A stretch of DNA of 64,000 bases from an uncultured Candidatus Rokubacteria bacterium. GTDB lineage: Bacteria; Methylomirabilota; Methylomirabilia; Rokubacteriales; CSP1-6. The DNA is taken from the NCBI GenBank assembly GCA_963743355.1, contig CAVUPM010000002.1:2546825-2610824 (forward strand). The letters are read 5' to 3'. Below, piece by piece: positions 25,741 through 59,379 of the stretch; within the stretch, counting starts at the first letter, position 1, and the number at the start of each line of letters is the position of its first letter. The translations under genes and the position numbers were made by a program. Below the pieces are notes generated by a model. The model was not told the origin of the DNA and ran no database searches. It was given only the letters and a program-made list of their open reading frames with translations.

Positions 25741-25800
25741 CACCCCGGGCGGTGGGGCCCCGGCGCCTGGCACCCCCCGACAGGGGGGGCCGGGGTTACT
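25741..25800. repeat. Degenerate G/C-hairpin sequence possibly related to the dispersed repeat family
   Basis: caccccgggcggtggggccccggcgcctggcaccccccgacagggggggccggggttactcccc between alaS and recX; similarity to the main family is weak. Confidence 0.25.
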
Positions 25801-26260
25801 CCCCGTCTGGCTGTATGCGCAGCGACTCGCGCACCACCCGGGCCACCACCCCGCCCGGAAACCCGCGCCGTAGCAGGTGATCGCGCAGGCGCGCGGCGGC
25901 CTTGCGAGGCTCCGCGCGGGCCAGTGCTGGAAGCCGGCGGCGGGCCAGGCGCCGCGCTTCTTCGAGCTGATCGCCGCGGTCCACGACGGTCAGCGCCGTG
26001 TCGATGAGCGGGGCGGGAACCCCGCGGGCCCGAAGCTCGGCCCGCAGCCGGGCGGTGCCATAGCCGCGGGGGGCGCGGGTCGTGACCCAGTGCCGGGCGA
26101 ACGCCGCATCGTCCACGTGGCCGCGCGCAACGAGGTCGTCGGTGACGCTGGCGGCGACGTCCAGCGGGGCGCCGCGGCGCCGGAGCCTGGTCATGAGGTC
26201 GGCCCGGGTCCAGGCGCGGCGGGCCAGCAGGTCACCCGCGGCCAGGCGGGCGGCCTTGAG
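25796..26260 (-). CDS. recX: RecA regulator RecX; N-terminal extent uncertain (no canonical start codon in frame)
   Basis: RecX helical repeats ...DLLARRAWTRADLMTRLRRRG...LRAELRARGVP...AARLRDHLLRRGF; the frame stays open up to the recA stop with RecX-like sequence but no ATG/GTG/TTG. Confidence 0.65.
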   Translation of the reverse strand, partial: LKAARLAAGDLLARRAWTRADLMTRLRRRGAPLDVAASVTDDLVARGHVDDAAFARHWVTTRAPRGYGTARLRAELRARGVPAPLIDTALTVVDRGDQLEEARRLARRRLPALARAEPRKAAARLRDHLLRRGFPGGVVARVVRESLRIQPDGE

Positions 26261-26293
26261 ATCCAGCTCCCGCCGTGGCGCGCGGATGGTCGG

Positions 26294-28396
26294 CTACTTC
26301 AGCGAGGCGGCCGCCCGCAGGCCGAGCGCCTCGCGGACCTTGGCCTCGAGGTCGGCCAGCGCCACCGGGTTCTCCTGCAGCCACTTCTTGGCGTTCTCCC
26401 GGCCCTGCCCGATGCGCTCGTTCTTGAAGCTGTACCAGGTGCCGGACTTCTCGACGAGGCTCTGCTCGACCGCCGCGTCGAGCACGGTCCCCGACTTGGA
26501 CACACCCTCGCCGTAGATGACGTCGAACTCGGCCTCGCGGAACGGCGGCGCCAGCTTGTTCTTCACGACCTTCACCTTGGTGCGCACGCCGATCGACTCC
26601 GTCCCCTGCTTGATCGCATCCTGCCGCCGGATGTCCAGCCGCACGGAGGCGTAGAACTTGAGCGCGCGCCCGCCGGTCGTGGTTTCTGGCGAGTTGTGCA
26701 CGACGACGCCGTCGGCCAGGTAGGTATGGTTGCCCTCGATCTCGAGGTCGAAGCGGTGCGTCGACCGCGTCGGTGGCTTGATGTAGCACTTCGTGATCTC
26801 GACAGGGACAACGCGCAGTCGGCGTCGGCCCGCGAGGCGCTCAGTCTCACTCAGATGAGCATCTCCATCGTCGACGTGCCAGATGAACCGGCCCCTCTGA
26901 GAGGGATGCAGCTTGTAGTCCATCGAGGGATGAAGGTATGGCGAGATCAGCTCGTGAAACCGGGCCGTGTCCTCGGAGTTGAACCAGAAACCGCGATCAT
27001 CGTCACGAACATCGGGGAACCCAAGGCGGGCCAAGGCCCCGAGGACTACGGCGCGTCCGGCAGCCTTCAATGACGTATTGTAGATGACTGCCTTGCCCTT
27101 GCCCCAGCGATTGTAAGACCCCATGAAGGAGCCGTCGTCGCCATACCAGACAGCGAGCCCTCGGGCATCGAGGCGGCCGAGACCGGGGTTCGTTGCGATG
27201 CGGCGTCCGGTCGTGTCGTAGAGCTCACCGTGCAGTTCAGCAAGGGCAGGCATCGTGAGAATGCTGAACCCGACGCCGTTGCCGACCCGGCCAATCGGCC
27301 GCGCGAAGGGTTCGAGCATCGAATGCTTCCATTCCAGGTAAGCCTTTTGCGCCGGCGCGTGGGCCACCCGGAAATGCGCGGCGTGACGCCCCACCATACG
27401 GATCGAACCGTCGCCTAGGGTCCCCCCGAGCAGAAGCTGGTACTGGTCACCGGACAACGCATAGTCCGGCATGGCGAACAGCACCTTGTCACCGACCTTC
27501 AGCTTACCCGCAGGAACTTCACCAGTGGGGGTAAAGACCATGTGGTTCGGAGTCGCGGCAAAGCAGCGTCGGCGCGCTGGTCCTCCACGAACTTCAAACT
27601 GAATAAAGTGCTCGGTCACGCCGTTGTCGAACCAGTTGACGACGCGGCGAGGCTCTACCCGTCCGCTCTCGGGATCGTACGAGAGCACCTCCACCGCTCG
27701 ACGTTCCCGGACGATCCGACCGATCGGTACGCGGGTTCCATCGGCTAGAAGCACGAGAGTGTCGTGATGCAGACACCCAAACATTACTCCGATCTTCTCG
27801 CGGATCTGGTTGATGAAGACGACGACGACGCCGGAGCGGGAGATGGCGGCGGTGAGCTTGCGCAGGGCCTGCGACATGAGGCGCGCCTGCAGGCCGGGCA
27901 GCGAGTCGCCCATGTCGCCGTCGAGCTCGGCGCGCGGCACCAGCGCGGCGACCGAGTCGATCACGATGACGTCGACCGCGTTGGAACGCACGAGCGTCTC
28001 GGTGATCTCCAGCGCCTGCTCGCCGGTGTCGGGCTGCGAGATCAGCAGCTCGTCGATGTTGACGCCGAGCTTGCGCGCGTAGATGGGATCGAGGGCGTGC
28101 TCGGCGTCGATGAAGGCCGCGATGCCGCCCAGGTTCTGGGCCTCGGCGATGACGTGCAGGGCCAGCGTCGTCTTGCCCGACGACTCCGGCCCGTAGATCT
28201 CGACGACCCGACCGCGCGGCAGGCCCCCGATGCCGAGCGCGGCGTCGAGCGAGAGGGCGCCGGTGGGGATGACGGCGATCTCCTCGAGCGGGCCGTTCGC
28301 GCCCAGCCGCATGACCGAGCCCTTGCCGAACTGTCGCTCGATCTGCGAGATCGCCAGCTCGAGGGCCTGCCGCCGATCGTTCTTGCTCTCAGCCAT
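26294..28396 (-). CDS. recA: Recombinase RecA interrupted by an in-frame intein (700-codon ORF: 207-aa N-extein, 361-aa intein, 132-aa C-extein)
   Basis: RBS AAGGAG then [26 protein letters not shown]...; Walker [10 protein letters not shown]; the extein junction ...KIGVMFG/[[10 protein letters not shown]...GVVVHN]/[23 protein letters not shown]. Confidence 0.9.
26693..27775 (-). mobile_element. RecA intein of 361 aa with Hint splicing blocks and a double-motif LAGLIDADG homing endonuclease, at the RecA-a insertion site
   Basis: Block [22 protein letters not shown] at N-end; block G ...[17 protein letters not shown] followed by +1 Ser; LAGLIDADG-like [12 protein letters not shown] and VWYGDDGSF; markedly lower GC (about 58-60%) than the flanking recA exteins. 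Confidence 0.8.
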
Positions 28397-36910: not shown

Positions 36911-37258
36911 TCAGCGCGCCAGCGTCAGCTCGGCCGCCAGCACCAGCGCGGTGAAGGCCAGCTCCAGCGTGGCCGGCAGGCGCTCGAGCACGAGCCCGAA
37001 CGCCGGCTGCTGGTGACGGAAGGACTCCCCGAGGTCGCCGCGGACGGCGCCGCCGAGGAACGCCACGTACTGCACGGGCACCGACCGGTCGAGACCGAGC
37101 TCACGGCGCAGATGGGCCAGCTCGTCGACCGTGGCGTCGCCGGGGAGCATCGAGGCTGCCGGGTCACCGCTGAGCCGCAGGGCGATGAACACCAGGGTAG
37201 CGACGCCGACGGTCACGAGGGCGGTGTGCAGGAGACGGCGGGCGACGAACTCGAGCAC
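36911..37258 (-). pseudogene. N-terminal 115-codon fragment of a DppB/OppB-family ABC transporter permease; remainder of the gene absent
   Basis: MLEFVARRLLHTALVTVGVATLVFIALRLSGDPAASMLPGD...LAHLRRELGLDRSVPVQY matches the conserved permease N-terminus; stop after about 115 aa, followed 30 bp later by the aat start. Confidence 0.4.
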
Positions 37259-37300
37259 GGCCAGACTCTAGCACCGCACCGCTGTGGTAGGGTAACCACG

Positions 37301-45683: not shown

Positions 45684-45843
45684 ACGCGCAAATAGCACGC
45701 CCGCTTTCGACGTGTCAAGCCGAGCGGCGGTGTAGTATCGACTCGCGATGACGACGCCGCCCGCCGACGGCATGCCGACCACGCGCGGGCCGAACGTCTA
45801 TCTCGCCGAGCCCGCCGGAGGCTGCTGAGATCCCGCCGCCGCG

Positions 45844-45873: not shown

Positions 45874-46431
45874 GTGCGTGAGGGGCTCACAGACGACGCC
45901 CCGCTGCTCGCGCGGCTGCGCGCCGGCGACACGCGGGCGTTCGAGGAGCTGGTGACGATGTACCAGCACCGGGTCTTCGGGGTCGCGCTCCGCATGCTGG
46001 GCAATCGCGCCGAGGCCGAGGAGATCGCCCAGGAGACCTTCCTGCGCGCCCACCGCGCGCTCGACGCGTTCCGCGGCGAGGCCCGGCTCGCCACCTGGCT
46101 CTACGGGATCGCTTCCCGGCTGTGTCTGAATCGGCTGGCCTCCGGCCCCCGCCGTCACGAGCGGAGCGACGTCATCGCGTTGTCGCTGGCGCCGGCCGAG
46201 GGCGCCGACGCCGTCGGGGCGCTGGAGCGCGGCGAGCTGGAGGCCGCGCTCCACGAGGCCGTCGCCGCGCTGCCGGAGGAGCGGCGGATCGTCGTCGTGC
46301 TCCGCGATCTCGAGGGGCTGAGCTACGAGGAGATCGCCGAGGTCCTCGGGGTACCGCTCAACACGGTCCGCACGCGCCTGCACCGGGCGCGGCTGGACCT
46401 CAAGGCCAAGCTGGAGCGATGGCTGCCGTGA
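45874..46431 (+). CDS. ECF-subfamily RNA polymerase sigma-70 factor
   Basis: Region 2 (DTRAFEELVTMYQHRVFGVALRMLGNRAEAEEIAQETFLRAHR) and region 4 (LEGLSYEEIAEVLGVPLNTVRTRLHRAR). Confidence 0.85.
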   Translation: MREGLTDDAPLLARLRAGDTRAFEELVTMYQHRVFGVALRMLGNRAEAEEIAQETFLRAHRALDAFRGEARLATWLYGIASRLCLNRLASGPRRHERSDVIALSLAPAEGADAVGALERGELEAALHEAVAALPEERRIVVVLRDLEGLSYEEIAEVLGVPLNTVRTRLHRARLDLKAKLERWLP

Positions 46432-47424
46432 CGTGCCCGGAGATCCGCGAGCTGTTCTCGTCGCGCGTGGACGACGCGCTCACCGCCGCCGAGCGCGGCC
46501 GTCTCGACGCGCACCTGGCCACGTGCGCCGAGTGCACGGCCGAGTGGCAGCGCTTCGAGCGCACCGTCGGCCTGCTGCGGGCGGTCGCGCCGGCCCGGGC
46601 GCCTGCCGGCTTCGTCGACCGGATGCTGGCCGCCCGGCCCCGGCCGTGGTACCGGCGGCTCGCGCGTGGCCTGTTCGTGCCGTGGCCGGTGAAGCTGCCG
46701 CTCGAGGCCGCTGCCCTCGTGCTCGTCGCCGGCCTGGCGGTCATGATCTTCCAGCGGTCACCCGAGCTGCGGCAGGCGGCGCGCGCGCCGGAGACGCCGT
46801 CCGGCGTGACGGCGCCGGCGCCCACGGTTCCAGCACCCGGCACCCTCGAGCCGGACTCCGTCCAGACTCTAACCAACCCCGAGGCCAAGCGCTCGCTCCA
46901 GGACGATGCCACGTCGCGGGCTGCCGAGCCTCCCTCCGCCGACACGCGGACGGACCTGAAAGCGGCCCGCGACGCCCCCCCGGCGGCACCACCAGCCGCG
47001 TCGTCGCCGCGCCTCTCCGAAGAATCGCGGACGAAGCGCGCGGACGCGCCGGAGGCGGGCGCGCGGCAGGAGGCCGTCTCAGGAGCGGACAGGCGCCGCG
47101 GCCCGCCAGGCGGCTCCGGCGCCGGCCCTGGGCAAGTCCGGCGAGATCCAGGCGCTGGCGGCTCCGACGTCGTTGCAGGGGCGTCTGACCGTCGGGGACC
47201 ACGCCGCGGCCGAGCGCACGGTGAGCGATCTCGTGACCCGGGCCGGAGGTCGCATCGTCACTCGCGTCGAGGAGCCGGGTGCGCTCGTCCTGGGTCTCGC
47301 CGTTCCCGGCGACCGCTGGGACGAGGTGAGGCGCGGCCTGGAGTCGCTGGGCACGCTCCGGCTCGAGGGTGAGCGCGGGCCCGCGACCGGTCCGCTGCGC
47401 GTCACCCTTCGCCTCGAGCGCTGA
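46419..47424 (+). CDS. Anti-sigma factor (zinc-finger N-domain, one TM helix, Pro/Ala-rich linker, C-terminal folded domain) with an apparent +1/-1 frameshift near 47090-47130
   Basis: Frame 0: MAAVTCPEIRELFSS...HLATCAECTAEW (HxxxCxxC) and TM LEAAALVLVAGLAVMIF; after about 47100 frame 0 becomes Arg/Gly junk, while the adjacent frame reads a clean domain ...GRLTVGDHAAAERTVSDLVTRAGGRIVTRVEEPGALVLGLAVPGDRWDEV... ending at 47424. Confidence 0.55.
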
Positions 47425-47432
47425 GCGCTCCG

Positions 47433-47460
47433 GGAACTTCCTCGCCACCGCCCTGTCTAA
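47433..47460 (+). promoter_or_regulatory. Second ECF-type promoter GGAACTT-N15-GTCTAA, upstream of the secreted DUF4139-like gene
   Basis: ccGGGAACTTcctcgccaccgccctGTCTAAcc about 37 nt upstream of the ATG at 47497 (RBS GGAGGGG). Confidence 0.5.
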
Positions 47461-47496
47461 CCGGGCAGGAGTCGATTCGATCGCCCGGAGGGGCCC

Positions 47497-48906
47497 ATGA
47501 AGACCCGGCTGCTCGCGCTCGCGTTGCTCATCGTGTTCGTGACGGCGCCGCCCGCCTCCGCCGCCACGCTCGCCGTCACCCGCGAGGTCCAGAAGGACGT
47601 GATGGTGACCATCTACAACGGCAACCTCGGCCTCGTGAAGGACGTGCGCGAGGTGCGGTTTCCGATCGGGCTCACCGAGGCGCAGTTCATGGACGTGGCC
47701 GCCCAGATCGACCCCACGACCGTCCACCTCAAATCGCTCACCGCTCCGGCCGGCCTCAAGATCCTGGAGCAGAACTACGAGTACGACCTGCTCTCCAGCG
47801 ACAAGCTGCTCGAGAAGTACGTCGGCAAGATCGTACGCCTCTACCAGTCCGACGGCACCTTCCACGAGGCCCGGCTCCTGTCGACGGCCGGGCCGGTGTT
47901 CGAGATCAACGGCCAGATCCATCTCGGCTACTCCGGCCGGATGGTGCTGCCCTCGCTGCCGGAGAACCTCGTGGCCAGGCCCACGCTGGTCTGGCTGCTC
48001 CGCAACCAGACGGCGGCGCCCCAGAAGGTGGAGGCGTCCTACCTCACCGGCGGGATCACCTGGAAGGCCGACTACGTGATGGTCGTCAACGACACCGATG
48101 CGAAGAGCGACCTCACCGGCTGGGTCACGATCGACAACAAGAGCGGCGCGACCTACGCCAACGCCGCGCTCAAGCTCGTGGCCGGCGACGTCAACCGCGC
48201 CCGCGAGGGCCGGCGTGACGGACGCCTGATGGAGCTGGCCGCCAAGGCCGCCTCCCCGCGCGAGGCCAGCCGCGACTTCGCCGAGGAGGGCTTCTTCGAG
48301 TACCACCTCTACACCCTCGACGGCCGCACGACGATCAAGAACCAGCAGACCAAGCAGCTCGCGCTCCTGAACGCCGCCGAGGTGCCGGTGACCAAGCACC
48401 TGATGTACTACGGCGCCCAGGACTACTACCGGACGTCCTACGGCATGCCGATGTCCAACCAGAAGGTGTCGGTGCTGCTCGAGCTGAAGAACAGCAAGGA
48501 GCACCGCCTGGGGCTGCCGCTACCCAAGGGCAAGGTGCGCGTCTACAAGGCCGATGCCTCCGGCAGCCAGCAGTTCATCGGCGAGGACTGGATCGACCAC
48601 ACGCCCCAGGGCGAGCGCGTGAAGATCAAGCTGGGCGAGGCGTTCGACGTGGTCGGCGAGCGCACGCAGAAGGAGTATCGCAAGCTGGCCCCCGGCCTCT
48701 GGGAGGTCGAGTGGGAGATCTCGCTGCGCAACCACAAGAAGCAGGATCAGACGGTGACCGTCATCGAGCCGGTGCCCGGCGACTGGCAGGTGCTGCACGC
48801 GACGCACCCCTACGAGAAGCCCCAGGCCCACACGCTGCGTTTCTCGATCCCCGTCCCGAAAGAGAGCGCCGCGAAGCTCGTCTACCGCGTCCGCATCCGC
48901 GGCTAG
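47497..48906 (+). CDS. Secreted hypothetical protein, possibly DUF4139 (mucoidy-inhibitor-A-like) family; likely target of the ECF sigma
   Basis: Signal peptide MKTRLLALALLIVFVTAPPASA; 469-aa beta-rich sequence; family name is a tentative recollection, not verified. Confidence 0.5.
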   Translation: MKTRLLALALLIVFVTAPPASAATLAVTREVQKDVMVTIYNGNLGLVKDVREVRFPIGLTEAQFMDVAAQIDPTTVHLKSLTAPAGLKILEQNYEYDLLSSDKLLEKYVGKIVRLYQSDGTFHEARLLSTAGPVFEINGQIHLGYSGRMVLPSLPENLVARPTLVWLLRNQTAAPQKVEASYLTGGITWKADYVMVVNDTDAKSDLTGWVTIDNKSGATYANAALKLVAGDVNRAREGRRDGRLMELAAKAASPREASRDFAEEGFFEYHLYTLDGRTTIKNQQTKQLALLNAAEVPVTKHLMYYGAQDYYRTSYGMPMSNQKVSVLLELKNSKEHRLGLPLPKGKVRVYKADASGSQQFIGEDWIDHTPQGERVKIKLGEAFDVVGERTQKEYRKLAPGLWEVEWEISLRNHKKQDQTVTVIEPVPGDWQVLHATHPYEKPQAHTLRFSIPVPKESAAKLVYRVRIRG

Positions 48907-49133
48907 CGTCCCCGGTCTGATATCGCGCACCGTGACAGCGGTGTCGCCGACGCGGGCGGAGGACGTACGAGATGGGGTCCGTGGACCCGTTCCCGCCACC
49001 CATCACCGTGTGCCCCCCAGCCGGATGGAGCCCAGCCACGGCCGGGCGAGGCGGCCTCCGGCCGCGTGGTGCCACGGACCCCACCTCGTACGTCCTCCGC
49101 CCGCGTCGGCGACACCGACCGGCGGCGCGGAGG

Positions 49134-49526
49134 CTAGCCGGCGGGACCGAGAACGGTCGCGACGATGTGGTTGAGGTACTGGAACTTCACGGGCTTGGGC
49201 AGGTAGGAGTAGGCGCCGTCCCTGATCACCTCACCGGCAACGCGCGTGCTCGCGTTGCCGGTGACCATGATGACCGGGATCCTGGCGTCGATGGCGCGCA
49301 TGCCCCGCAGCGCCTCGACGCCGTCCATGCCGGGCATGTCGATGTCGAGCAGGACCAGCGCGGGCCGCCGGCGGCGCACCGCCGCCAGCGCCTCGGCGCC
49401 GTCACCGGCCGTCTCGACGCTGTAGCCACGCGGCCCGTAGTGATGCTCGAAGTAGCCGACCAGCACCTCGCGCACCGACGGCTCGTCATCCACGATCAGG
49501 ATCGTCTTGCTGACCGGCGCGCTCAT
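49134..49526 (-). CDS. Single-domain response regulator (CheY-like receiver)
   Basis: MSAPVSKTILIVDDEPSVREVL...LLDIDMPGMDGVEALRG...PVIMVTG...SYLPKP. Confidence 0.8.
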   Translation of the reverse strand: MSAPVSKTILIVDDEPSVREVLVGYFEHHYGPRGYSVETAGDGAEALAAVRRRRPALVLLDIDMPGMDGVEALRGMRAIDARIPVIMVTGNASTRVAGEVIRDGAYSYLPKPVKFQYLNHIVATVLGPAG

Positions 49527-49656
49527 GCCGGCCACCCTACACCGGCGCCGCGCGGCTGGCGCGTCCCTATCCATCTACTGTGGACAAAATCTGACCGCCC
49601 CATGGAGACGCTCGCCGGATCGCCATGCTGGCAGGAGGTTACGGGTCACCCGGGGT

Positions 49657-51120
49657 ATGGTGCCGCCCTTGCAGCCCATGCTCGGTTCGATGACCGACAT
49701 CGCGGCATCGCGATCGACGACGGCCGGGCGGAGGCCGGGGACGAGCGGCGGCCCGCTGGCGCCCGCAGCGCACCCTGCGGCGGCGAGCGAAGCCGACGCG
49801 GTCTTCGTGCGTCCACCGACCGACGCCGAGCGCCGGCGCACGCGGCTGCGCCAGGAGATCGCCGCCCGCGTCATCGTCTCCGTCGCGGCGCTGGTCTTCA
49901 ACGAGCTCGTCGCGTTCGACCACGAGGCCGCCGCGGTCATCCGCGTCACCGCGCTGATCGCGCTCGGCGTCAACCTGCCCTACCTCCTCGCGGTCCGCAC
50001 CGGCCGTGCGCTGCGTACGCAGGCCCATCTCAGGATCCTGATCGACGTCGCACTCACCACCGCCGGCCTCTACGGCGCCGGCGGACTCAGCGCCGCGCCC
50101 TACATCGGCATCTACGCCATCGTGCCCGTGTACAGCGCCATCGTGTTCTCGAGCCTCGCCTGCGTGCTGGCCGTGCTGTTCGCGACGGCCACCTATCTCG
50201 TGCTCGCCGCGCTCCAGTCGGCCGGCGTCCTGCCGTTCCTGGCGCCACCGCCGCCGGGCGCCTGGACGACGGCCGCCTTCAATCTGCTGATCCTCAACAT
50301 CGTCGGCTGGCTGGCGGCCCTGCTCGCCCACGCCTACCGCGTCAGCCGCGAGCGCCTGGCCGCGCTCTACGCCGAGCTGGAGCGGGCCCACGACCACTCG
50401 GTGCAGATGAACACGCAGCTGCAGCTCGCGACGCGGCGCTACGTGCTGGGCGAGGTGGTGACCGGCGTCACCCACGAGGTGCGCGACGCGCTGCAGGGCG
50501 TGTTCGGCCACCTGTGGCTGGCGCGGCGCGGGGGCCCGGCGCTGCCGGCCGCCGCTCTCGACCACCTGGCCCGGGCCGAGCAGGCGTGCGAGAACGCCAT
50601 GCGCATCATGGCGACCACGCTCGACATGGCGCGCCGCCCCGAGCCCACGCGCGAGACCGTTGCCGTCGCGGAGGTCGTGCGCCGCGTGGCCGAGCTCAAG
50701 GCCGTCGAGTTCCGCCGCGAGCGCATCGTGCTGCGCGTGGAGCTCGCCGAGCCGCTGCCGCCCATCCTCGGCGGCTCGCTCCAGCTCCAGCAGGCGTTGC
50801 TGAACCTGGTCGTCAACGCGCAGGAGGAGCTGCGCGGCGCGGGCGGCCGGCGCGAGATCTCGATCGTGGCGCGGGAGGACGGCGACCGGGTGCTCCTGGA
50901 CGTGCGCGACACCGGCCGGGGCATCCCGCCCAGCATCCTGCCCCACCTCTTCGAGCCGTTCCACACGACCAAGACGGCCGGCACCGGGATCGGGCTGGCG
51001 ATGTCGGCGGGCATCGCGGAGAGTCTGGCGGGCACGCTGACCGGCGAGAACCGCCCCGAGGGCGGCGCCGCCTTCCGCCTCACGCTGCCCGCCGCTACTC
51101 GCCGGGCTGCAGCTTCCTGA
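49657..51120 (+). CDS. Membrane sensor histidine kinase; start position approximate
   Basis: Several TM helices, then H-box VTGVTHEVRDAL and HATPase_c boxes (NLVVNAQEE, DTGRGIP, GTGIGLAMS). Confidence 0.7.
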   Translation: MVPPLQPMLGSMTDIAASRSTTAGRRPGTSGGPLAPAAHPAAASEADAVFVRPPTDAERRRTRLRQEIAARVIVSVAALVFNELVAFDHEAAAVIRVTALIALGVNLPYLLAVRTGRALRTQAHLRILIDVALTTAGLYGAGGLSAAPYIGIYAIVPVYSAIVFSSLACVLAVLFATATYLVLAALQSAGVLPFLAPPPPGAWTTAAFNLLILNIVGWLAALLAHAYRVSRERLAALYAELERAHDHSVQMNTQLQLATRRYVLGEVVTGVTHEVRDALQGVFGHLWLARRGGPALPAAALDHLARAEQACENAMRIMATTLDMARRPEPTRETVAVAEVVRRVAELKAVEFRRERIVLRVELAEPLPPILGGSLQLQQALLNLVVNAQEELRGAGGRREISIVAREDGDRVLLDVRDTGRGIPPSILPHLFEPFHTTKTAGTGIGLAMSAGIAESLAGTLTGENRPEGGAAFRLTLPAATRRAAAS

Positions 51121-51607
51121 GCAGGCGACGCGTGATGGGGCGTTCGTCCTCGCCCTGATCGGTCAGGAGCACGTCGCCGGGTAGCACCGGCACCTTGCTC
51201 CCCGGATCGCGTACCGCCCGCATCACCACCCGGCACTCGCCCTTCTCGACCCGCGTGGCGCCGGCGTTCTGCCGCATCAGCCGGCCGCCGGCATCCAGCG
51301 CCCAGGTCGTCGCGGCCGGCGCCAGCAGCATCGCGCGGTGCTCGTCCGGCGTCGGAGGCGCCGGGGAGGCCGCGTAGGCCATCGTGGCGTTGGAGTTGAA
51401 GACGTAGCGCTGGTGCATCTGGTAGGCCGGCGCGCTGCGGTCGACGTCAGCCCCGGTCGCGAACCCGAAGCGGACCACGCGCCAGAAGCCCAGGAGGTCG
51501 GCGCGCCGGCACGGACGCAGGACGTCCACCTCCTGCGCGAGCGCCGGCACCGCCATCAGCCCGAGCAGCACCAGCACCAGGACCGGCGACAGTCGCCGGG
51601 GCGGCAC
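51095..51607 (-). CDS. Secreted hypothetical protein (about 170 aa), GTG start just after the ftsK stop
   Basis: Signal peptide (M)PPRRLSPVLVLVLLGLMAVPALA-QE; no recognisable domain. Confidence 0.45.
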   Translation of the reverse strand: MPPRRLSPVLVLVLLGLMAVPALAQEVDVLRPCRRADLLGFWRVVRFGFATGADVDRSAPAYQMHQRYVFNSNATMAYAASPAPPTPDEHRAMLLAPAATTWALDAGGRLMRQNAGATRVEKGECRVVMRAVRDPGSKVPVLPGDVLLTDQGEDERPITRRLLRKLQPGE

Positions 51608-51612
51608 GGCCC

Positions 51613-53839
51613 TTACCGTCCGGCCTTGGCCAGGAACTCCGGACCGACGAGGATCTCGCGCGGCTTGGCGCCCTGGCCGGGACCGATGATCCGGTCCTGC
51701 TCCATCATGTCGATGAAGCGCGCGGCCTTCGGGTAGCCCAGGCTCATGCGACGCTGCAGGAACGAGATCGACCCCTGCCGCTGGCCGATGACGAGCCGCA
51801 CGCAGTCCCAGTACAGGTCGTCGCGCTCGGCACCGTCGCCACCTTCGCCGCCGTCGGCGTCGGCGGGCAGCACGACCTCCTCGTAGACGGCCGTCCCCTG
51901 CTTCCTCAAGAATTCGCAGACGCCCTTGACCTCGTCGTCGGCCACCCAGGCGCCGTGCACGCGCATCTGCTTGTTCGCGCCCGGCGGCACGTAGATCATG
52001 TCGCCCCGGCCCAGCAGCTGCTCGGCGCCGTTGCCGTCGAGCACGGTGCGCGAGTCGACCTTGGAGGCCACCTGGAACGCGATGCGGGTGGGGAAGTTGG
52101 CCTTGATCAGCCCGGTGACGACGTCGACGGACGGCCGCTGCGTCGCGATGATCAGGTGGATGCCGACCGCCCGGGCGATCTGGGCCAGCCGCACCAGCGA
52201 CGTCTGGACCTCGCCGGCCGAGACCATCATGAGGTCGGCCAGCTCGTCGACGACGACCACCCAGTAGGGCAGCCGCTCCTCGGGGCCGACGGCGCGGTTG
52301 TAGCCCTCGATGTTGCGCACCTGCTTGTGCTGCAGCGTCTTGTAGCGCTCGTCCATCTTGCCGACGATCCAGCGCAGCCGGGCCGCCGCCTCCTTGGCGT
52401 CGGTGACGACCGGCGCCAGCAGGTGCGGAATGCCCTCGTAGCAGGACAGCTCCAGCCGCTTGGGGTCGATCATCAGGAAGCGCACGTCGGCCGGCGTGGC
52501 CTTGTACAGGATCGAGCAGATCATGCCGTTGAGGCCGACCGACTTGCCGCTGCCGGTGGCGCCGGCGATGAGCAGGTGCGGCATCGCGGTGAGATCGGCC
52601 ACGACCGGCTGGCCCTGGACGTCCTTGCCGAGGGCCAGCGGCAGCTTGCCCTTGGACTCGGCGAACTCCGGCGAGACGAAGATCTCGCGCAGGTAGACGA
52701 TCGCGTGGTCGTCGTTGGGGACCTCGATCGCCACCGTGCCGCGCCCCGGGATCGGTCCCACGATGCGCACGGAGGCGGCCTTGAGCGCCAGCGCCAGGTC
52801 GTCGGAGAGGTTCACGACCTGGCTCACCTTGATGCCCGGCGCCGGCTCGAACTCGTAGGACGTGATGATCGGGCCCGGGCTCACCTGCACGATGCGGCCG
52901 TCGACCTCGAAGTCCTGCAGCTTGCGCCGCAGGACCTCGGCGTTGTCCTGCAGCTCCAGGCGCGTGCGCTTCAGCTCGGACGCCGGCGGCGGCTTGAGCA
53001 GGCCGACCGGCGGAAGCTGGAAGGACTGGGCGCCGCCCTTGCCGAAGTCGAAGGTCTCCTGCCACGCCAGCCCCTGCTCCATGAGGCGGCCGCGCGGCTT
53101 GGCCGGCTCGACCACGACCGGCAGCGGCGGCTCGACGGCGTCCGCGGGCAACGCGATGGCCGGCGAGGTCCGCTCGAGCTCGAGCCGGGGTACGGCCGGC
53201 TTGGCCGCGCGACGCGTGCGCCGCAGCTTCGCCACGCCGGACCGCCGTGAGCCGGGCGACGGCGGCGTAGGAGGCCTGGGTGACGAGCAGCACGCCGACC
53301 GGCACGGCGGCGAGCAACAGCAGCCAGGCTCCGACCCGGCCGAGCGTGGCGTGCAGCGACGCCGTGAGCGTCCAGCCCAGCCAGCCGCCGGTGGCCAGGA
53401 TGCCGCCGCGGGTCACGCGCGTGGCGACGAACGTATCGGCCGCCTGCTGCAGCAGTCCGGCGGAGGCGAGCAGCAGGACGCCGAGGCCGGCCAGCGGCAG
53501 CCAGCCCTTCGCCACGTGCGGCCGCACGAACGCCGCCGCGCCCCAGGCGCCGAGCAACAGCGGGAGCAGGAACCCCGCGTACCCCAGCACGCGGAACAGC
53601 CCCCAGCCCAGGTACCAGCCACCGGGGCCGACGGGCGAGCCCTGGTCGGCCGGCGGCAGCGCCGGGTCGAAGACGGCCAGCGAGATCAGCGCGAAGCCGG
53701 CGATGGCGAGGGCCACGATGCCGCGCGCCTCGCGCGTCCACCGGCGTGGATCGCTCTTGCGGCGCTTCCGGGGCCGGGCGGCCACCGGCCTGGGGATGGT
53801 GAGGGGCTTGTCGCGCTCGACGGAGACGGTCGCGGGCAT
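51613..53839 (-). CDS. ftsK: DNA translocase FtsK (N-terminal 4-TM domain, Pro/Ala-rich linker, RecA-like motor, gamma domain) with an apparent single-nucleotide frameshift near 53215-53250
   Basis: N-terminal membrane domain MPATVSVERDKPL...IVALAIAGFALISL... in one frame from ATG 53839 (RBS GGAGGT); motor Walker A GATGSGKS, VVVDELADLMM and winged-helix gamma domain in the adjacent frame from 53235. Confidence 0.75.
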
Positions 53840-55521
53840 CAGACCTCCAGGATCATGGGCAGCACCACGGGCTTGCGCTGGAAGCGGTGGTTCACGAACT
53901 GACGCACCGTGGTGCGCACGCGGGCGCCGATGGCCTCGCGGTCCCACGGCTCGTCCGGCACGCGCTCGCCGAGCGCGGCGATCACCGCCGCGCGCATCGC
54001 CTCCAGCAGCGCCTCGTTCTCCTTGACGTAGATGACGCCGCGGGTGGCAATCTCGGGGCCCGCCACCAGCGCGCCCTTGGCGTCGACGGCGAGCGAGACG
54101 GCGATGACGCCGTCCTCGTTCAGGATCTGCCGGTCGCGCAGGACGACCGCGCCGACGTCGCCGATCCCCTTGCCGTCGACCAGCACGCGGCCGGCCGGGA
54201 ACCCCTCCACCACGCGCGCGGACGTCGGCGTGGCCTCCAGGCCGGCGCCGTCCTCGATGAGGAAGATCCGCTCGGAGGGCAGCCCCGTCGACGCGGCCAG
54301 GCGGGCGTGGCCCAGCAGGTGCCGATACTCGCCGTGAACGGGCACGAAGTAGCGCGGGCGCGTGAGCGCGAGCATCCGCTTGAGGTCTTCCTGACTCGCG
54401 TGCCCGGAGACGTGCACGAAGGCGTTGTCGTCGTACAGCACCTCGGCGCCCAGCCGGTAGAGCGCGTTGATCACCCGCCCCACGGTGCGCTCGTTGCCGG
54501 GGATGACGCGCGCGGAGATGACGACGAGGTCGCCGCGCGCGACCTGCACGTACTTGTGCTCGCCGGCGGCCATGAGGGCCAGCGCGGAGTGCGGCTCGCC
54601 CTGGCTGCCGGTGGAGAGGATCACCTGGCGCTCGGGCGGCAGCGCCACCAGCTCCTCCAGCGGCAGCAGCAGGCCCTCCGGCACGCGCAGGTACCCGAGC
54701 TCGGCGGCGATCGCCACGTTGCGCTCCATCGAGCGCCCCAGCAGCGCGACCTGCCGGCCGAACCGTGCGGCCTGAGTGAGGACCTGCTGGATGCGATGGA
54801 TGTGCGAGGCGAAGGTGGCGAGGATGATGCGGCCGGAGGCGTGCGCGAACCGCTCGGCGAACGCGGCCCCCACCTCGAGCTCCGAGGGCGTGTGGCCGGG
54901 CCGGTCGACGTTGGTGGAGTCCGAGCACAGCACGAGGACGCCGCGCTCGCCCAGCTCGGCGAACCGGCGATCGTCGGACGGCTCGCCGTCGAGCGGGCTC
55001 GGATCGAGCTTGAAGTCGCCGGTGAGGACGACGGTGCCGGCGGGCGTGTCGACCGCCAGGCCGATGCCGTCCACGATCGAGTGGGTCACCCGGATCGGCT
55101 CCACCCGGAACGGCCCCACCTCGAACGCCTCCCGCGGCCGCATGACCCGCAGGTCCGCGCTCTCGAGCAGACCGTGCTCGCGCAGCTTCTCGGTGACCAG
55201 CGCCAGCGTCAGCGGCGTGCCGTACACCGGCACGGTGGCCGCGCGCAGCAGGTACGGGATCGCGCCGATGTGGTCTTCGTGACCGTGCGTCAGCACCACC
55301 GCCCGAAACCCGTCGCCCTTGGCCAGCGCGTGGGAGAAATCCGGGATGACGTAGTCGATGCCCGGCAGCTCGTCGTCCGGGAACATCAGGCCGCAGTCCA
55401 CGGCGATGACGTCGTCCCCGAACTCGACGAGCATCATGTTCAAACCGATTTCGCCGAGCCCACCGAGGGGAATGAGACGAACCGCTGGCTCCACCAGAAC
55501 TCCTTTCGAGACGCCAGTCAT
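53839..55521 (-). CDS. rnj: Ribonuclease J (MBL, beta-CASP, C-terminal domain)
   Basis: MTGVSKGVLVEPAVRLIPLGGLGEIGLNMM..., HGHEDHIGA motif II, beta-CASP motifs; TGA stop overlaps the ftsK ATG; start coordinate uncertain by 1 nt. Confidence 0.85.
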   Translation of the reverse strand: MTGVSKGVLVEPAVRLIPLGGLGEIGLNMMLVEFGDDVIAVDCGLMFPDDELPGIDYVIPDFSHALAKGDGFRAVVLTHGHEDHIGAIPYLLRAATVPVYGTPLTLALVTEKLREHGLLESADLRVMRPREAFEVGPFRVEPIRVTHSIVDGIGLAVDTPAGTVVLTGDFKLDPSPLDGEPSDDRRFAELGERGVLVLCSDSTNVDRPGHTPSELEVGAAFAERFAHASGRIILATFASHIHRIQQVLTQAARFGRQVALLGRSMERNVAIAAELGYLRVPEGLLLPLEELVALPPERQVILSTGSQGEPHSALALMAAGEHKYVQVARGDLVVISARVIPGNERTVGRVINALYRLGAEVLYDDNAFVHVSGHASQEDLKRMLALTRPRYFVPVHGEYRHLLGHARLAASTGLPSERIFLIEDGAGLEATPTSARVVEGFPAGRVLVDGKGIGDVGAVVLRDRQILNEDGVIAVSLAVDAKGALVAGPEIATRGVIYVKENEALLEAMRAAVIAALGERVPDEPWDREAIGARVRTTVRQFVNHRFQRKPVVLPMILEV

Positions 55522-55587
55522 CGTAGCACCCGGCCCGCGCCGCCCCGAAGTTCTGCTACGGGCACGATTCTTGGATACCCAAAGGGT

Positions 55588-55914
55588 ATGAAAGTTTTCA
55601 TCCTGGCCGTTTTGGTAGGTCTTCTCGCTGGTTGCACGAACTCGTACTGGGCGCGGCCGGGGGCCACGCTGCCCGATCTGGTAAGCGAATCCGAGAATTG
55701 TTACCGGGCCGCGTTCGACTTCGACGCGCCTTCCGCACTCCCCGGCCCCAGCGGCGCGCCACAGCTGCTGCCCCGGACGACCCCGCCGCCCAGGCTGTGG
55801 GAGCGGGCGCCGTCGGCGGCCGCCTTCGAACGCTTCGATGAGCAGTTGAAATACGAGCGCTGCATGCACACGCGCGGCTGGGACTCGGCCCGGGCCTCCG
55901 CCCCGAAACTCTGA
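55588..55914 (+). CDS. Small Cys-containing lipoprotein (108 aa), paralog of the one at 28526-28765; 5' end notably AT-rich
   Basis: MKVFILAVLVGLLAGC lipobox, then TNSYWARPGATLPDL...ENCYR...FDEQLKYERCMHTRGWDS, sharing the WxYAxPG, ExC and ECMxxxGY/W-xS motifs with the other copy. Confidence 0.5.
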   Translation: MKVFILAVLVGLLAGCTNSYWARPGATLPDLVSESENCYRAAFDFDAPSALPGPSGAPQLLPRTTPPPRLWERAPSAAAFERFDEQLKYERCMHTRGWDSARASAPKL

Positions 55915-55934
55915 CGCTCGGCCCGCAAGGCGGC

Positions 55935-55995
55935 GCCGCCGGGCCGGCACCCCCGAGCCACCCGGGGGGTCTGGGGGCCATGTCGGGGCCCCCCA
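55935..55995. repeat. Copy C (partial) of the dispersed GC-rich hairpin repeat element
   Basis: ggcacccccgagccacccggggggtctGGGGGCCatgtcggGGCCCCCC. Confidence 0.55.
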
Positions 55996-56026
55996 GGCAG
56001 GCTATCCCCCCGGTAAACTATCCCGC

Positions 56027-56725
56027 GTGCCGCTGCGCCGCCTGCGCTACGCGACCCTGGATGCCCTGCTCCGCCGCGAGCTGGTCCGCGAGGAGCATCC
56101 GGCCACCGCGGCGCTGATCCGCGACCTCGCCGGCGTGCGCGCGCGCGGCGCCTTCACGCGCGGGGAGTTCACGCGGATGTGCCGGTGGAAGAGCCCGCGG
56201 GCGCGCCTGCTGTGGGGGGCCAACTCCCCGGCGCGCGTCCGCGCGGTCTCTCGCGCAGTCCTGGCGACCCGCAGCGAGCGGCGCCGGATGGAACTGCTGA
56301 CGAGCCTGCGCGGCGTCGGCGTGCCCATCGCCTCCGCCATCCTCACCCTCATCGACCCGCGCCGCTACGGCGTCCTCGACATCCGCGCCTGGCAACTCCT
56401 CGTCGCCATCCGCTCCGTCCGCACGAACGCCCGCGGCCAAGCCTTCACCATCGCGCAGTGGGAGCAATACCTCTCGGCCCTACGCCACCACGCCCGTTGC
56501 CTCGGCGTCACCGCCCGTACGATCGAATACACGCTGTTCGAGTGCCACCGGAAATTTCAACAGGGGACTCTCTACGTCCGCTCCGAGCGCCGGCTCCGCC
56601 GGCGCAATCCTGTCCTCGGGGGAGGCAGCGAGGAGCGCGCCGCCAGGCGCGCGACGACCGTCGGCCGGGGAGTCCGAGGGGGCGTAGCCCCCTCGCTCAC
56701 ACGGGGGACGAAGTCCCCCGTGTGA
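56027..56725 (+). CDS. Small HhH-GPD-like (DNA-glycosylase-fold) hypothetical protein
   Basis: LTSLRGVGVPIASAILTLIDPRRYGVLDIRAWQLL resembles the helix-hairpin-helix plus Gly/Pro loop plus Asp of the EndoIII superfamily (compare LPGVGRKTANVVL...AVDTHIFRV); GTG start; the last 9 codons are the hairpin at 56698-56728. Confidence 0.45.
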   Translation: MPLRRLRYATLDALLRRELVREEHPATAALIRDLAGVRARGAFTRGEFTRMCRWKSPRARLLWGANSPARVRAVSRAVLATRSERRRMELLTSLRGVGVPIASAILTLIDPRRYGVLDIRAWQLLVAIRSVRTNARGQAFTIAQWEQYLSALRHHARCLGVTARTIEYTLFECHRKFQQGTLYVRSERRLRRRNPVLGGGSEERAARRATTVGRGVRGGVAPSLTRGTKSPV

Positions 56726-56728
56726 GTC
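56698..56728. terminator. Perfect 14-bp-stem hairpin between convergent genes (candidate bidirectional terminator)
   Basis: CTCACACGGGGGAC-gaa-GTCCCCCGTGTGAG. Confidence 0.45.
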
Positions 56729-57968
56729 CTAAAACGGCGAGGAGTCCTCGAGCCGGCGGACGAGGGCGCGCGCTTCCTTGAGGTAGCGGCGGTGCTCGGC
56801 GCCATCCAGCGGCTGGCCGGGGACGAACTTCTCGTTCAGCGGGTTCACGAAGCGCCCGTTCTTCTTGACGCGATAGTCCAGATGGGGGCCGGTGCTCAAT
56901 CCGGTGGACCCGACGTAGCCGATCACGTCGCGCTGGCTCACGCGCGTGCCCGTCCGGACGCCAGGCCCGAGCCGCGCGAGATGGTTGTACAGCGTCTCGT
57001 AGCCCGCGTGGTGCCGCAGGTGCACCTGGATGCCGTTGCCGCCGTTCCAGCCGGCCAGGACCACGGTGCCGTCGGCGACGGCGCGAACGGGCGTGCCCAC
57101 CGGCGCCCCGTAGTCCACCGCCAGGTGCGGCCGCACGCCGCCCAGGATCGGGTGCGGGCGCGCGTAGGTGAAGCCCGAGGTGACGCGCGTGAACTCCAGC
57201 GGCGACTTCAGGAAGGTCTTCTTCAGCGAGCGGCCGTCGAGATCGTAGTACGCGTTCCGCCCGCCGGCCGGCTCGAAGCCCACCCCGGTCAGGATGCGGC
57301 CGTCACTCAGATACTGCGCGACGAGGATCTGGCCGTAGTCCACGAACTGCTCGCCGGCGTAGCGCTTCTCGACGAGCAGGCGGAAGCGGTCGCCGCCGCG
57401 GCTGTCGGCGGTGAAGTCGAAGTCCGAGGAGAAGATCTCGACCAGCTCGAGCACGAGCTGCGGCGACTCGCCCAGCGCCTCGACCGCCTCGAACAGCGAG
57501 CGCTTCAGCTCGCCGCCCACCGCCTCCACGCGCACGTCGGGACGGGTCTCGGCGCGCCGCACCTCCCAGCCCGGTGTCGGTCGCCACCACCGCGAAGCCC
57601 AGCCACGGGCTCGGCTCCCAGCGCACCGCGACCGGCTCGCCCTCGAGCGTCCACGTGATCTCCAGCTCGTCGCTCGGGCGCATGCGCCGCAGGTCGGCGC
57701 CGCCGGCGCGCAGCGCGGCGGCGATGCCGGTGGAGGCGCGGCGGTCGAGGCCGAGCCGGCCGAGCGCGCTGACGAGCGTGTCGCCCCGGCGCAGCGAGAC
57801 CGACTCCGTGCGGACCTGGGGCGGCGGGGGCTCGGCGGCGACGGGCTCGGGCGCCGGCGCCGGGGCGATCGCAACCGGGGGCGGGGCCGACGGCTTGAAG
57901 ACGACGAGGCCGGTGGCGGCAACTGGCAACACGGCGAGGAGCGAGAGCACGATCGTGCGCCGCGACAT
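56729..57968 (-). CDS. M23-family metallopeptidase with N-terminal membrane anchor; apparent 1-nt frameshift near 57570-57600
   Basis: N-terminal MSRRTIVLSLLAVLPVAATGLVVF...VRWEPSPWLGFAVVATDTGLG in one frame; LytM/M23 core HxxxD...GSTGLSTGPHLDYRV...H in the adjacent frame. Confidence 0.7.
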
Positions 57969-57973
57969 CCCCG

Positions 57974-58762
57974 TTATGATAGCCGAGCCGTCAGCGCGAC
58001 GAACTCCTCAATCGTCAGGGTCTCAGCCCGGCGCCCGGGGTCGACCCCAGATCTGGTGGCCGCCTCGCGTGCGACCCCCAGCGAAAGGCCGAGCCCGCCC
58101 GTGAGCGCGTTGGCGAGGGTCTTGCGCCGACTCGCGAACGCCGCGCGCACGACGTCGCGAAAGCGCGCCTCGAGCCCGGGGGGCACCCGCGTCTGCGCGC
58201 GCGGCGTGAGCCGCACCACGGCGGAGTCCACCTTGGGGGGCGGACGGAACGCGCCGGGCGGCACCCGCAACGCCAGCTCCACGTCGCACACGGCCTGGGT
58301 CAGCACCGACATCGCGCCGTACACCTTGCCGCCGGGCGGCGCGGCCAGACGCTCGGCCACCTCGCGCTGGAGCATGAGCGCCATCGCGTCGATCACGCCC
58401 CGCGCCTCGAGCAGGGCCGCCACGATCGGCTTGCCGACGCTGTAGGGCAGGTTGCCGACGACGAGCACGCGGCCGCCGGCCGGCCGCTCGAGCGTGCCGT
58501 AGTCCCACGTCCGCGCATCCGCCTCCAGCACCTCCACCGCCGGCCACCGGCGGCGCAGCGCCTCGAGGAGCCCGCGGTCCACCTCCAGCGCGATGAGTCG
58601 GCCCGCCCGGCGGGCCAGCTCGTGCGTGAGCGCGCCCTCCCCCGGCCCGATCTCGACGACGAGGTCGGCGGAGGTCGGCGCGACGAGATCGACGATGGAT
58701 CGGGCGATGCCGGCGTCGCGGAGAAAGTGCTGCCCGAGCGCCCGGCGCTTACCGCCCGGCAC
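57974..58762 (-). CDS. rsmA: 16S rRNA (adenine1518-N6/adenine1519-N6)-dimethyltransferase
   Basis: GTG start (M)[15 protein letters not shown]..., SAM motif VVEIGPGEGALT, NLPYSV. Confidence 0.85.
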   Translation of the reverse strand: MPGGKRRALGQHFLRDAGIARSIVDLVAPTSADLVVEIGPGEGALTHELARRAGRLIALEVDRGLLEALRRRWPAVEVLEADARTWDYGTLERPAGGRVLVVGNLPYSVGKPIVAALLEARGVIDAMALMLQREVAERLAAPPGGKVYGAMSVLTQAVCDVELALRVPPGAFRPPPKVDSAVVRLTPRAQTRVPPGLEARFRDVVRAAFASRRKTLANALTGGLGLSLGVAREAATRSGVDPGRRAETLTIEEFVALTARLS

Positions 58763-59379
58763 GGGTGCGCAGGTCTTCGAGGAGGGCGGCGTGGACCTCG
58801 CGGGTGCGGGCCTCGGTGGCGGCGCGGTCGCCGGAGTTGTCGATGACGTGGTCGGCGAGCCTGGCCTTGTCGGCCAGCGACATCTGGCTGGCGATCTTGC
58901 GCTCGGCGTCGGCCCGGTCGCCGTCGCGGGCCAGCGCGCGGGCGCGCTGGGTCGCATCGTCGGTGATCACGACGATCAGCCGGTCCATGTCACGGTAGCC
59001 ACCCGACTCGATCATCACGGGCGCGTCCCAGACGACGATCCCCTCGAAGCCCCGCGCCTCCAGCTCGGTCAGGCGGGCGCGGTAACGGTCGCGGATCGCG
59101 GGGTGCGTGATCGCCTCCAGGCGTTGGCGCCGAGCCGGGTCGGCGAAGACGACGGCGCCGAGTCGCCTGCGGTCGAGCGTGCCGTCCGCCTGCAGGACGT
59201 CGCGGCCGAACTCCTCGGCGATGGCGACCAGGGCGGGCTCGCCCGGGGTCGACGACCTCGCGGGCCAGCACGTCGGCATCGAGCACGACGCAGCCGAGCC
59301 CCCGCAAGGTCTCCGACACGGTGCTCTTGCCGGTCGCGAGGCCGCCGGTGAGCCCGACCAGCAGGAAGCGGCGGCTCAC
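58749..59379 (-). CDS. coaE: Dephospho-CoA kinase with an apparent 1-nt insertion in a CCCCGGG run near 59243-59249
   Basis: [25 protein letters not shown]...[15 protein letters not shown] in one frame, continuing [27 protein letters not shown]...ITHPAIR in the adjacent frame; GTGA overlap with the polA stop. Confidence 0.7.

What the first reader, a model, noticed from the sequence alone, without database searches (positions are those of the whole stretch)
53200..53260. ftsK is split between two reading frames; first of four conserved genes with apparent single-nucleotide frameshifts
The FtsK N-terminal 4-TM domain (from ATG 53839) reads in one frame to ...LLVTQASYAAVARLTAV. The linker, motor (GATGSGKS) and gamma domain read in the adjacent frame from about 53235 (VAKLRRTRRAAKPAVPRLELE...). 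There is no stop between them, only a frame change. ftsK is essential, so a sequencing or assembly indel is the most likely cause. Together with coaE, the M23 peptidase and the anti-sigma factor (all the same pattern, often at G/C runs), this suggests systematic consensus indel errors such as long-read homopolymer errors, rather than pseudogenisation. Programmed frameshifting or real gene decay are less likely.
Basis: partly seen in the sequence, partly recalled or inferred. Interest (0 to 1): 0.5.

Follow-up and report, generated by a model that had tools for sequence, protein, structure and literature searches.

The report
One-base assembly errors splitting ftsK
The split ftsK gene, and three nearby split genes, each carry one extra base that is most likely a consensus error of a long-read metagenome assembly rather than biology.

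Summary
ftsK on the minus strand changes reading frame at base 53236. Residues 1-201 are read from ATG 53839. Residues 202-741 are read from GTG 53235 in the +1 frame, with no stop codon between them. More than 100 orthologues from Methylomirabilota/Rokubacteria MAGs (76-93% identity) are single 740-750 aa proteins. They read ...TA[VTA]R-[VL]AKLRR... straight across the break. The window differs by exactly one extra C (sense strand), CCGG[C]GTGG. coaE (59246-59249), the M23 peptidase gene (57573-57574) and the anti-sigma gene (about 47076-47079) also each carry one extra base. Removing one base per gene restores ORFs of 741, 209, 412 and 334 aa with complete Pfam domains. FtsK shows no sign of decay. 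The window comes from a 3.28-Mb contig, so probably a long-read assembly. In the same gene cluster, seven Nanopore-only Microflora Danica Rokubacteria MAGs carry 15 frameshifts, about 1 per 3.8 kb, and 14 of them shift by +1. The other 78 loci, almost all from short-read MAGs, carry 6, about 1 per 99 kb. The window matches the long-read pattern in rate and direction. Verdict: a consensus insertion artefact, not a biological feature. Only coaE is a clear homopolymer case. Interest is low.

The parts
53237..53839 (-). ftsK 5' part: codons 1-201, covering the FtsK_4TM membrane domain and ending ...ARLTAVR
   Evidence: tblastn with L001/L002 FtsK places residues 1-201 at 53839-53237 in frame -1. 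Pfam FtsK_4TM matches residues 33-196 of the repaired protein.
53236..53236 (-). The single extra base. It is C on the sense strand and G on the + strand, in the context CCGG[C]GTGG. It is absent from all orthologues.
   Evidence: DNA alignment with L001-L005 and with L086. Protein alignment with 40 orthologues. Deleting it gives a 741-aa ORF.
51613..53235 (-). ftsK 3' part: codons 202-741 plus the stop codon. It covers the linker and the alpha, motor (GATGSGKS) and gamma domains. It is called as a separate 540-aa gene in the source record.
   Evidence: tblastn places residues 202-743 at 53235-51616 in frame -2 at 95-96% identity. Pfam FtsK_alpha, FtsK_SpoIIIE and FtsK_gamma match. The exact 540-aa product is present in NCBI/ENA on a 3,283,468-bp contig.
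58749..59379 (-). coaE (dephospho-CoA kinase) with one extra C in a C run. The sense strand reads GAC[C]CCGGG, and the run is 59246-59249.
   Evidence: tblastn frame change from -2 to -3 at 59242-59246. DNA alignment. The repaired ORF is 209 aa with CoaE domain positions 2-177 of 180.
56729..57968 (-). M23 peptidase gene with one extra base at 57573-57574. The sense strand reads GACA[C]CGGGC.
   Evidence: tblastn frame change from -3 to -1 at 57570-57586. DNA alignment. The repaired ORF is 412 aa with a complete Peptidase_M23 domain.
46419..47424 (+). zf-HC2 anti-sigma factor gene with one extra base at about 47076-47079 (GCCGTC[T]CAGGAG). The break lies in a poorly conserved linker, so the exact base is uncertain.
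   Evidence: tblastn frame change from 3 to 1. DNA and protein alignment. The repaired ORF is 334 aa, against 329-334 aa in the orthologues.

Best explanation
The window is part of a long-read metagenome-assembled genome of a Methylomirabilota/Rokubacteria bacterium. It is most likely Nanopore-only, without short-read polishing. Its consensus sequence contains sporadic spurious one-base insertions. One of them, base 53236, falls after codon 201 of an otherwise normal, intact ftsK and pushes the rest of the gene into the +1 frame. Three more hit coaE, an M23 peptidase gene and an anti-sigma factor gene within the same 13 kb. In the organism these genes are almost certainly uninterrupted. Shown here: the frame breaks, their one-base nature, the intact orthologues, the absence of decay, and the same error signature in related Nanopore MAGs. 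Inferred: that the window's own assembly is long-read, and that its reads do not support the extra bases.
For: 1. All of the 120 best FtsK orthologues (76-93% identity) are single proteins of about 740-750 aa with all four Pfam domains. They read continuously across the break...TA[VTA]R-[VL]AKLRR.... At DNA level the window has exactly one extra base.

2. coaE, M23 and the anti-sigma gene show the same lesion, one extra base each. Deleting one base per gene restores ORFs of 741, 209, 412 and 334 aa. These match the orthologue lengths and have complete Pfam domains.

3. There is no decay. The FtsK part after the break is 95-96% identical to orthologues and its GC3 stays near 98%. The repaired protein has 0 private substitutions at columns that are near-invariant in 60 orthologues. 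The orthologues average 0.6 in the N-terminal part and 0.9 in the C-terminal part.

4. The window's proteins occur in NCBI/ENA on a single contig of 3,283,468 bp. That length implies long reads for an uncultured bacterium of this kind.

5. Control. In the same gene cluster, 7 Microflora Danica Rokubacteria MAG loci carry 15 frameshifts in 19,174 aligned residues, and 14 of the 15 shift by +1. Those MAGs are Nanopore R10.4.1 assemblies made with Flye and one round of Medaka, with no short-read polishing (PMC12313526). The other 78 loci, almost all short-read MAGs by their contig names, carry 6 in 198,639 residues, in mixed directions. The odds ratio is 26 and Fisher p = 5e-12. The window has 4 of 4 +1 events in about 5,900 residues. 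That fits the long-read rate (4.6 expected) and not the rate of the other loci (p = 4e-5).

6. The insertion contexts in the MFD loci resemble the window's sites, for example TCG[C]GTCG, TCG[C]GCG and AGAC[C]GGCG.

7. Nanopore consensus indels are a documented cause of frameshifted gene calls. R10.4 MAGs below about 40-fold coverage still need polishing (PMC9262707).
Against:
- No second assembly of the same species was found to show the intact allele directly. The nearest DNA is 88-90% identical.
- The four breaks cluster in 13 kb of the 64 kb, with none seen in the other 51 kb. My own back-of-envelope estimate for uniformly scattered errors is about p = 0.03. This is unexplained. It could reflect locally low coverage or mixing of strains.
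- Two of the four sites are not homopolymers, the textbook Nanopore error context.
Confidence: 0.9

Rival explanations
1. The frameshifts are genuine, very recent mutations. ftsK, coaE, the M23 peptidase gene and the anti-sigma gene would then be fresh pseudogenes in this strain, or in a sub-population that dominated the consensus.
For: The sequence as given contains the breaks. The same neighbourhood shows real gene-content change: an acyl-CoA dehydrogenase gene is reduced to 22 codons at 45748-45813. The four breaks are clustered.
Against: This needs four independent inactivating one-base insertions within 13 kb, two of them in core housekeeping genes (ftsK and coaE; general knowledge). None of the four genes shows any secondary lesion or relaxed selection. 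The direction bias (4 of 4 are +1) and the rate match those of related Nanopore-only MAGs, where different positions in the same genes are hit. The short-read MAGs of the clade almost never show such breaks.
Confidence: 0.06
2. FtsK is naturally made as two polypeptides. The membrane domain would be one product. A separately initiated motor protein would start at GTG 53235.
For: A GTG codon sits exactly at the first codon of the downstream frame. The source annotation calls a 540-aa gene from it.
Against: That GTG is simply Val202, or Leu, of the continuous orthologues. The upstream frame has no stop until 51095, so the N-terminal product would carry about 700 residues of out-of-frame sequence. 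No Shine-Dalgarno-like sequence precedes the GTG: the upstream bases are GGCGGTCCGGC. None of the 120 best orthologues is split.
Confidence: 0.02
3. The breaks are sites of programmed +1 ribosomal frameshifting or transcriptional slippage that restores the frame during expression.
For: All four breaks need the same +1 correction.
Against: The ftsK site reads GTC CGG C GTG. It has no slippery codon, no in-frame stop or other obvious pause signal, and no long A/T run that would allow transcriptional slippage (read directly). The frameshift is absent from every orthologue, so it is not a conserved recoding site. The four sites share no motif.
Confidence: 0.01

Closest known systems
Residual consensus indels in Nanopore-only (Flye plus Medaka) metagenome-assembled genomes, which fragment gene calls. 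This is the problem addressed by the IDEEL test, proovframe and short-read polishing.
   Same: The lesions are single-base indels that split otherwise intact conserved genes. The source is a very long contig. The rate, about 1 per 4 kb in the affected gene cluster, equals that measured here in Microflora Danica Nanopore MAGs of the same clade. The problem is documented in PMC9262707, and the pipeline in PMC12313526.
   Different: The classic description stresses errors in homopolymer length. Here, and in the related Nanopore MAGs, most events are insertions of a single C or G at very short runs or at non-homopolymer positions in DNA of 72% G+C. Almost all are insertions rather than deletions.
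DNA translocase FtsK (4TM, alpha, beta/motor and gamma domains) of Methylomirabilota/Rokubacteria
   Same: After removing base 53236 the gene encodes a 741-aa protein with all four Pfam domains. It is up to 93% identical to the orthologues, in the conserved order RNase J - FtsK - hyp168.
   Different: As deposited, it is read in two frames.
Programmed +1 frameshifting, for example in prfB
   Same: A +1 shift would be needed to read through.
   Different: There is no slippery site, no in-frame stop, no upstream Shine-Dalgarno stimulator and no conservation among orthologues.

Membership tests
FtsK/SpoIIIE DNA translocase | An N-terminal 4TM membrane domain, FtsK alpha, the FtsK_SpoIIIE motor with a Walker A motif, and a gamma (KOPS-binding winged-helix) domain, all in one polypeptide | tested here: met
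   The repaired 741-aa protein matches FtsK_4TM (33-196), FtsK_alpha (275-375), FtsK_SpoIIIE (383-571, containing GATGSGKS) and FtsK_gamma (671-731). As deposited, the domains lie in two frames.
Long-read consensus indel artefact | The lesion is a 1-base indel whose removal restores an ORF colinear with the orthologues | tested here: met
   at all four sites.
Long-read consensus indel artefact | The assembly was made from error-prone long reads without accurate-read polishing | tested here: inconclusive
   The source contig is 3,283,468 bp and is held in NCBI/ENA, which implies long reads. The platform and the polishing are not known. The nearest long-read relatives are Nanopore-only MFD MAGs.
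Long-read consensus indel artefact | The same class of lesion is enriched in comparable long-read assemblies relative to short-read assemblies | tested here: met
   15 in 19,174 aligned residues against 6 in 198,639, odds ratio 26, p = 5e-12. 14 of the 15 are +1, as are 4 of 4 in the window.
Long-read consensus indel artefact | Accurate reads do not support the extra base | not testable with these tools
   No reads were available.
Genuine pseudogene | Additional lesions or relaxed selection downstream of the first break | tested here: not met
   The 540 codons after the break contain no further stops or indels and are 95-96% identical to orthologues. There are 0 private changes at near-invariant columns. 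A very recent event cannot be excluded.
Programmed ribosomal frameshift site | The frameshift is conserved among orthologues | tested here: not met
   All 120 best orthologues are in a single frame. The DNA of L001-L005 and L086 lacks the extra base.
Programmed ribosomal frameshift site | A slippery sequence plus a stimulatory element such as a stop codon, an SD-like sequence or RNA structure | tested here: not met
   GTC CGG C GTG has no slippery codon and no in-frame stop (read directly). RNA structure was not examined.

The most novel reading that the evidence does not exclude
The four one-base insertions are real in the organism. A free-living Rokubacteria strain would then carry frameshifted ftsK and coaE. 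It would either tolerate them, or express them through an unrecognised +1 recoding mechanism at sites that are not slippery.
Probability: 0.03. Interest if true: 0.55.

Novelty: not a real feature. Interest (0 to 1): 0.07.

Why it matters
Biologically it does not matter. The organism almost certainly has ordinary, intact ftsK, coaE, M23 peptidase and anti-sigma genes.

The practical value concerns data quality. The deposited record calls truncated proteins, such as a 540-aa 'FtsK' lacking its membrane domain, and these propagate into protein databases. The control run here suggests the problem is wider. Public Nanopore-only MAGs of this high-G+C phylum carry about one spurious +1 insertion per 4 kb of conserved coding sequence in this gene cluster. 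That would inflate pseudogene counts and fragment gene families unless the frameshifts are corrected.

Tried and rejected
- **Fifth frameshift in hyp211 (56027-56725).** Only residues 1-184 of 211 aligned. The DNA alignment shows a divergent basic tail, not a frame change.
- **In-frame stop at 26294 with coding signal on both sides.** This is just the recA stop followed by recX in the same frame.
- **Low-GC3 stretch 26810-27775 inside an ORF.** This is a recA intein, not an error.
- **Weak flag at 12586-13329(-).** The HhH-GPD domain is complete.
- **A methylation-motif (CCGG/CCSGG) link to the insertions.** Three of the four window sites touch CCGG. However, 17.5% of all window positions lie within 4 nt of CCGG, and only a minority of the MFD insertion sites do. 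This is not convincing.
- **Finding the source record or an independent same-species assembly.** Exact look-ups of window proteins in the contig index found nothing. The genome-contig scan found no 100% match; the best hits were 97% amino-acid identity over a partial match and 93% over the full length. The metagenome scan across the junction found only one intact relative, 89% identical. Fragments in the 90% protein cluster are at most 97% identical, and the only two that span the break are 87-93% identical.

Full report
**What is there.** The window is 72% G+C. On the minus strand, an ATG at 53839 overlaps the stop codon of the upstream RNase J gene. It opens a frame that encodes the four-helix membrane domain of FtsK and ends ...QASYAAVARLTAVR. 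From GTG 53235 the adjacent frame encodes VAKLRRTRR..., followed by the alpha, motor (GATGSGKS) and gamma domains, down to a stop at 51613.

The third-position G+C signal is close to 98% in coding DNA here. It moves from one phase to the next between 53206 and 53266. A codon-usage scan gives two abutting coding segments, 53240-53842 and 51622-53238. The first lies in a frame that does not reach a stop until 51095.

**Comparison with relatives.** A search with the stitched protein returned thousands of FtsK sequences. The best 120 are 76-93% identical and nearly all 740-750 aa long. Each carries FtsK_4TM, FtsK_alpha, FtsK_SpoIIIE and FtsK_gamma in one polypeptide. Those that are named come mostly from Methylomirabilota / Candidatus Rokuibacteriota MAGs. 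Aligned, they read ...RLTA[VTA]R-[VL]AKLRR... without interruption, and the window loses or gains no residue at the join.

Five syntenic contigs, L001-L005, are 88-90% identical to the window at DNA level. They show CCCGG-GTGGCG where the window has TCCGGCGTGGCG. That is one extra C on the sense strand, base 53236. A sixth relative from a metagenome scan is also intact.

**The other three genes.** The syntenic contigs carry the following genes in the same order as the window:

- PolA
- CoaE
- RsmA
- M23 peptidase
- two hypothetical proteins
- RNase J
- FtsK
- hyp168
- a histidine kinase
- a response regulator
- DUF4139
- a zf-HC2 anti-sigma factor
- an ECF sigma factor

tblastn of their proteins against the window shows single-frame matches for most of these genes. 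Four genes show colinear two-frame matches: CoaE, M23, FtsK and the anti-sigma factor. The nucleotide alignments show one extra base in each:

| Gene | Sense-strand context | Window position |
|---|---|---|
| coaE | GAC[C]CCGGG | 59246-59249 |
| M23 peptidase | GACA[C]CGGGC | 57573-57574 |
| anti-sigma factor | GCCGTC[T]CAGGAG | about 47076-47079 |

The anti-sigma break lies in a variable linker, so the exact base is uncertain. Deleting one base per gene gives uninterrupted ORFs of 741, 209, 412 and 334 aa. The orthologues are 743, 209, 413-414 and 329-334 aa. The repaired ORFs have complete Pfam domains. All four events shift the frame the same way, by +1. Only coaE is a clear homopolymer extension.

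**Is it decay?** There is no sign of it. The 540 codons after the ftsK break are 95-96% identical to the orthologues and contain no further stop or indel. At alignment columns that are nearly invariant in 60 orthologues, the window has no private substitutions in either half. The orthologues average 0.6 and 0.9.

No programmed-frameshift signal is visible either. GTC CGG C GTG has no slippery codon, no in-frame stop and no A/T run, and no orthologue shares the shift. The GTG at 53235 is simply codon 202 (Val or Leu) of the continuous protein. The upstream frame would add roughly 700 out-of-frame residues to the membrane domain, so a natural two-protein FtsK is implausible.

**Where the sequence comes from.** The exact products of four window genes are present in NCBI/ENA on a single contig of 3,283,468 bp. 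One of them is the truncated 540-aa 'FtsK'. A contig of that size from an uncultured bacterium of this kind implies a long-read assembly. The record itself could not be retrieved.

**A control for the error hypothesis.** The genome scan returned 80 related loci. Seven of them come from Microflora Danica MAGs. Those are Nanopore R10.4.1 assemblies made with Flye and one round of Medaka, without short-read polishing (PMC12313526). I applied the same tblastn test to all 85 loci then held.

| Set | Frameshifts | Aligned residues | About one per | Direction |
|---|---|---|---|---|
| 7 Nanopore loci | 15 | 19,174 | 3.8 kb | 14 of 15 are +1 |
| 78 other loci, almost all short-read by contig name | 6 | 198,639 | 99 kb | mixed |
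| Window | 4 | about 5,900 | 4.4 kb | 4 of 4 are +1 |

The difference between the Nanopore loci and the rest has an odds ratio of 26 and Fisher p = 5e-12. Five of the 7 Nanopore loci are affected, against 5 of the 78 others. In the Nanopore loci the breaks fall in PolA, RsmA, RNase J, FtsK, CoaE and DUF4139, at a different position in each MAG.

The window's count fits the Nanopore rate, which predicts 4.6 events. It is very unlikely at the rate of the other loci (p = 4e-5). Local alignments show that the Nanopore-MAG events are mostly single C or G insertions, such as TCG[C]GTCG, TCG[C]GCG, AGAC[C]GGCG and CCCGGG[G]CTC. These are the same kind of context as in the window. That Nanopore consensus indels fragment gene calls, and that R10.4 MAGs below about 40-fold coverage still need polishing, is documented (PMC9262707).

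**What remains unexplained.** The rest of the window looks clean. The codon-score scan and Pfam profile coverage of about 40 further ORFs show no other split gene. The four errors therefore sit within 13 of the 64 kb. My own rough estimate for uniformly scattered errors is about p = 0.03. Locally low coverage or mixing of strains would explain this, but I could not test it. A link to CCGG-type methylation motifs was considered and is not supported.

**Verdict.** These are most likely spurious one-base insertions in a long-read consensus (confidence about 0.9), not pseudogenes, a split FtsK or recoding. The decisive test is inspection of reads at the four sites. As biology the finding is ordinary. 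Its only value is as a warning about data quality.

Noticed in passing
window 26294-28390 (-): recA encodes a 698-aa product interrupted by an intein that carries a LAGLIDADG_2 homing-endonuclease domain. The junctions are ...[13 protein letters not shown]... and ...[13 protein letters not shown]. The intein accounts for a stretch of about 1 kb with low third-position G+C (26810-27775). recX follows directly at 25796-26293.
   Followed up: partly
L006, L034, L049, L065, L081 (Microflora Danica Nanopore MAG loci): Public Nanopore-only Rokubacteria MAGs carry about one frameshift per 3.8 kb in conserved housekeeping genes of this cluster. 14 of the 15 shift by +1, almost all through single-base insertions and mostly of C or G. 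The other 78 loci, almost all short-read MAGs, show about one per 99 kb. This points to a systematic insertion bias of that pipeline on DNA of about 72% G+C.
   Followed up: partly
window 45748-45813 (+): Only the first 22 codons remain of the 585-aa acyl-CoA dehydrogenase gene. In L001-L003 and L012 that gene lies between the ABC ATPase and ECF sigma genes. About 1.7 kb is missing from the window. The gene is also absent from L073, L011 and L018, so it is a variable gene with a remnant here.
   Followed up: partly
window 36911-37264 (-): A 117-aa ORF matches only BPD_transp_1_N, the N-terminal segment of an ABC-transporter permease. No permease body follows it. The next gene downstream is the leucyl/phenylalanyl-tRNA protein transferase gene. 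It may be a gene remnant.
   Followed up: no
window 46419-59379: All four one-base insertions fall within 13 kb. The other 51 kb of the window show no split genes. The cause of this clustering is unknown; coverage or strain heterogeneity are possibilities.
   Followed up: partly
L081 about 5369-5376 (PolA): A 16-nt imperfectly duplicated insertion (…CCGGACGCCTGAGCAGCCGGACGGTTA…) disrupts polA in a Nanopore MAG. It looks like an artefact of consensus building or strain collapse rather than a single-base error.
   Followed up: no
window 56690-56725 (+): A G+C-rich inverted repeat (CACACGGGGGAC GAA GTCCCCCGTGTG) sits at the end of the hyp211 ORF. It is probably a terminator hairpin shared by the two convergent genes.
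   Followed up: no
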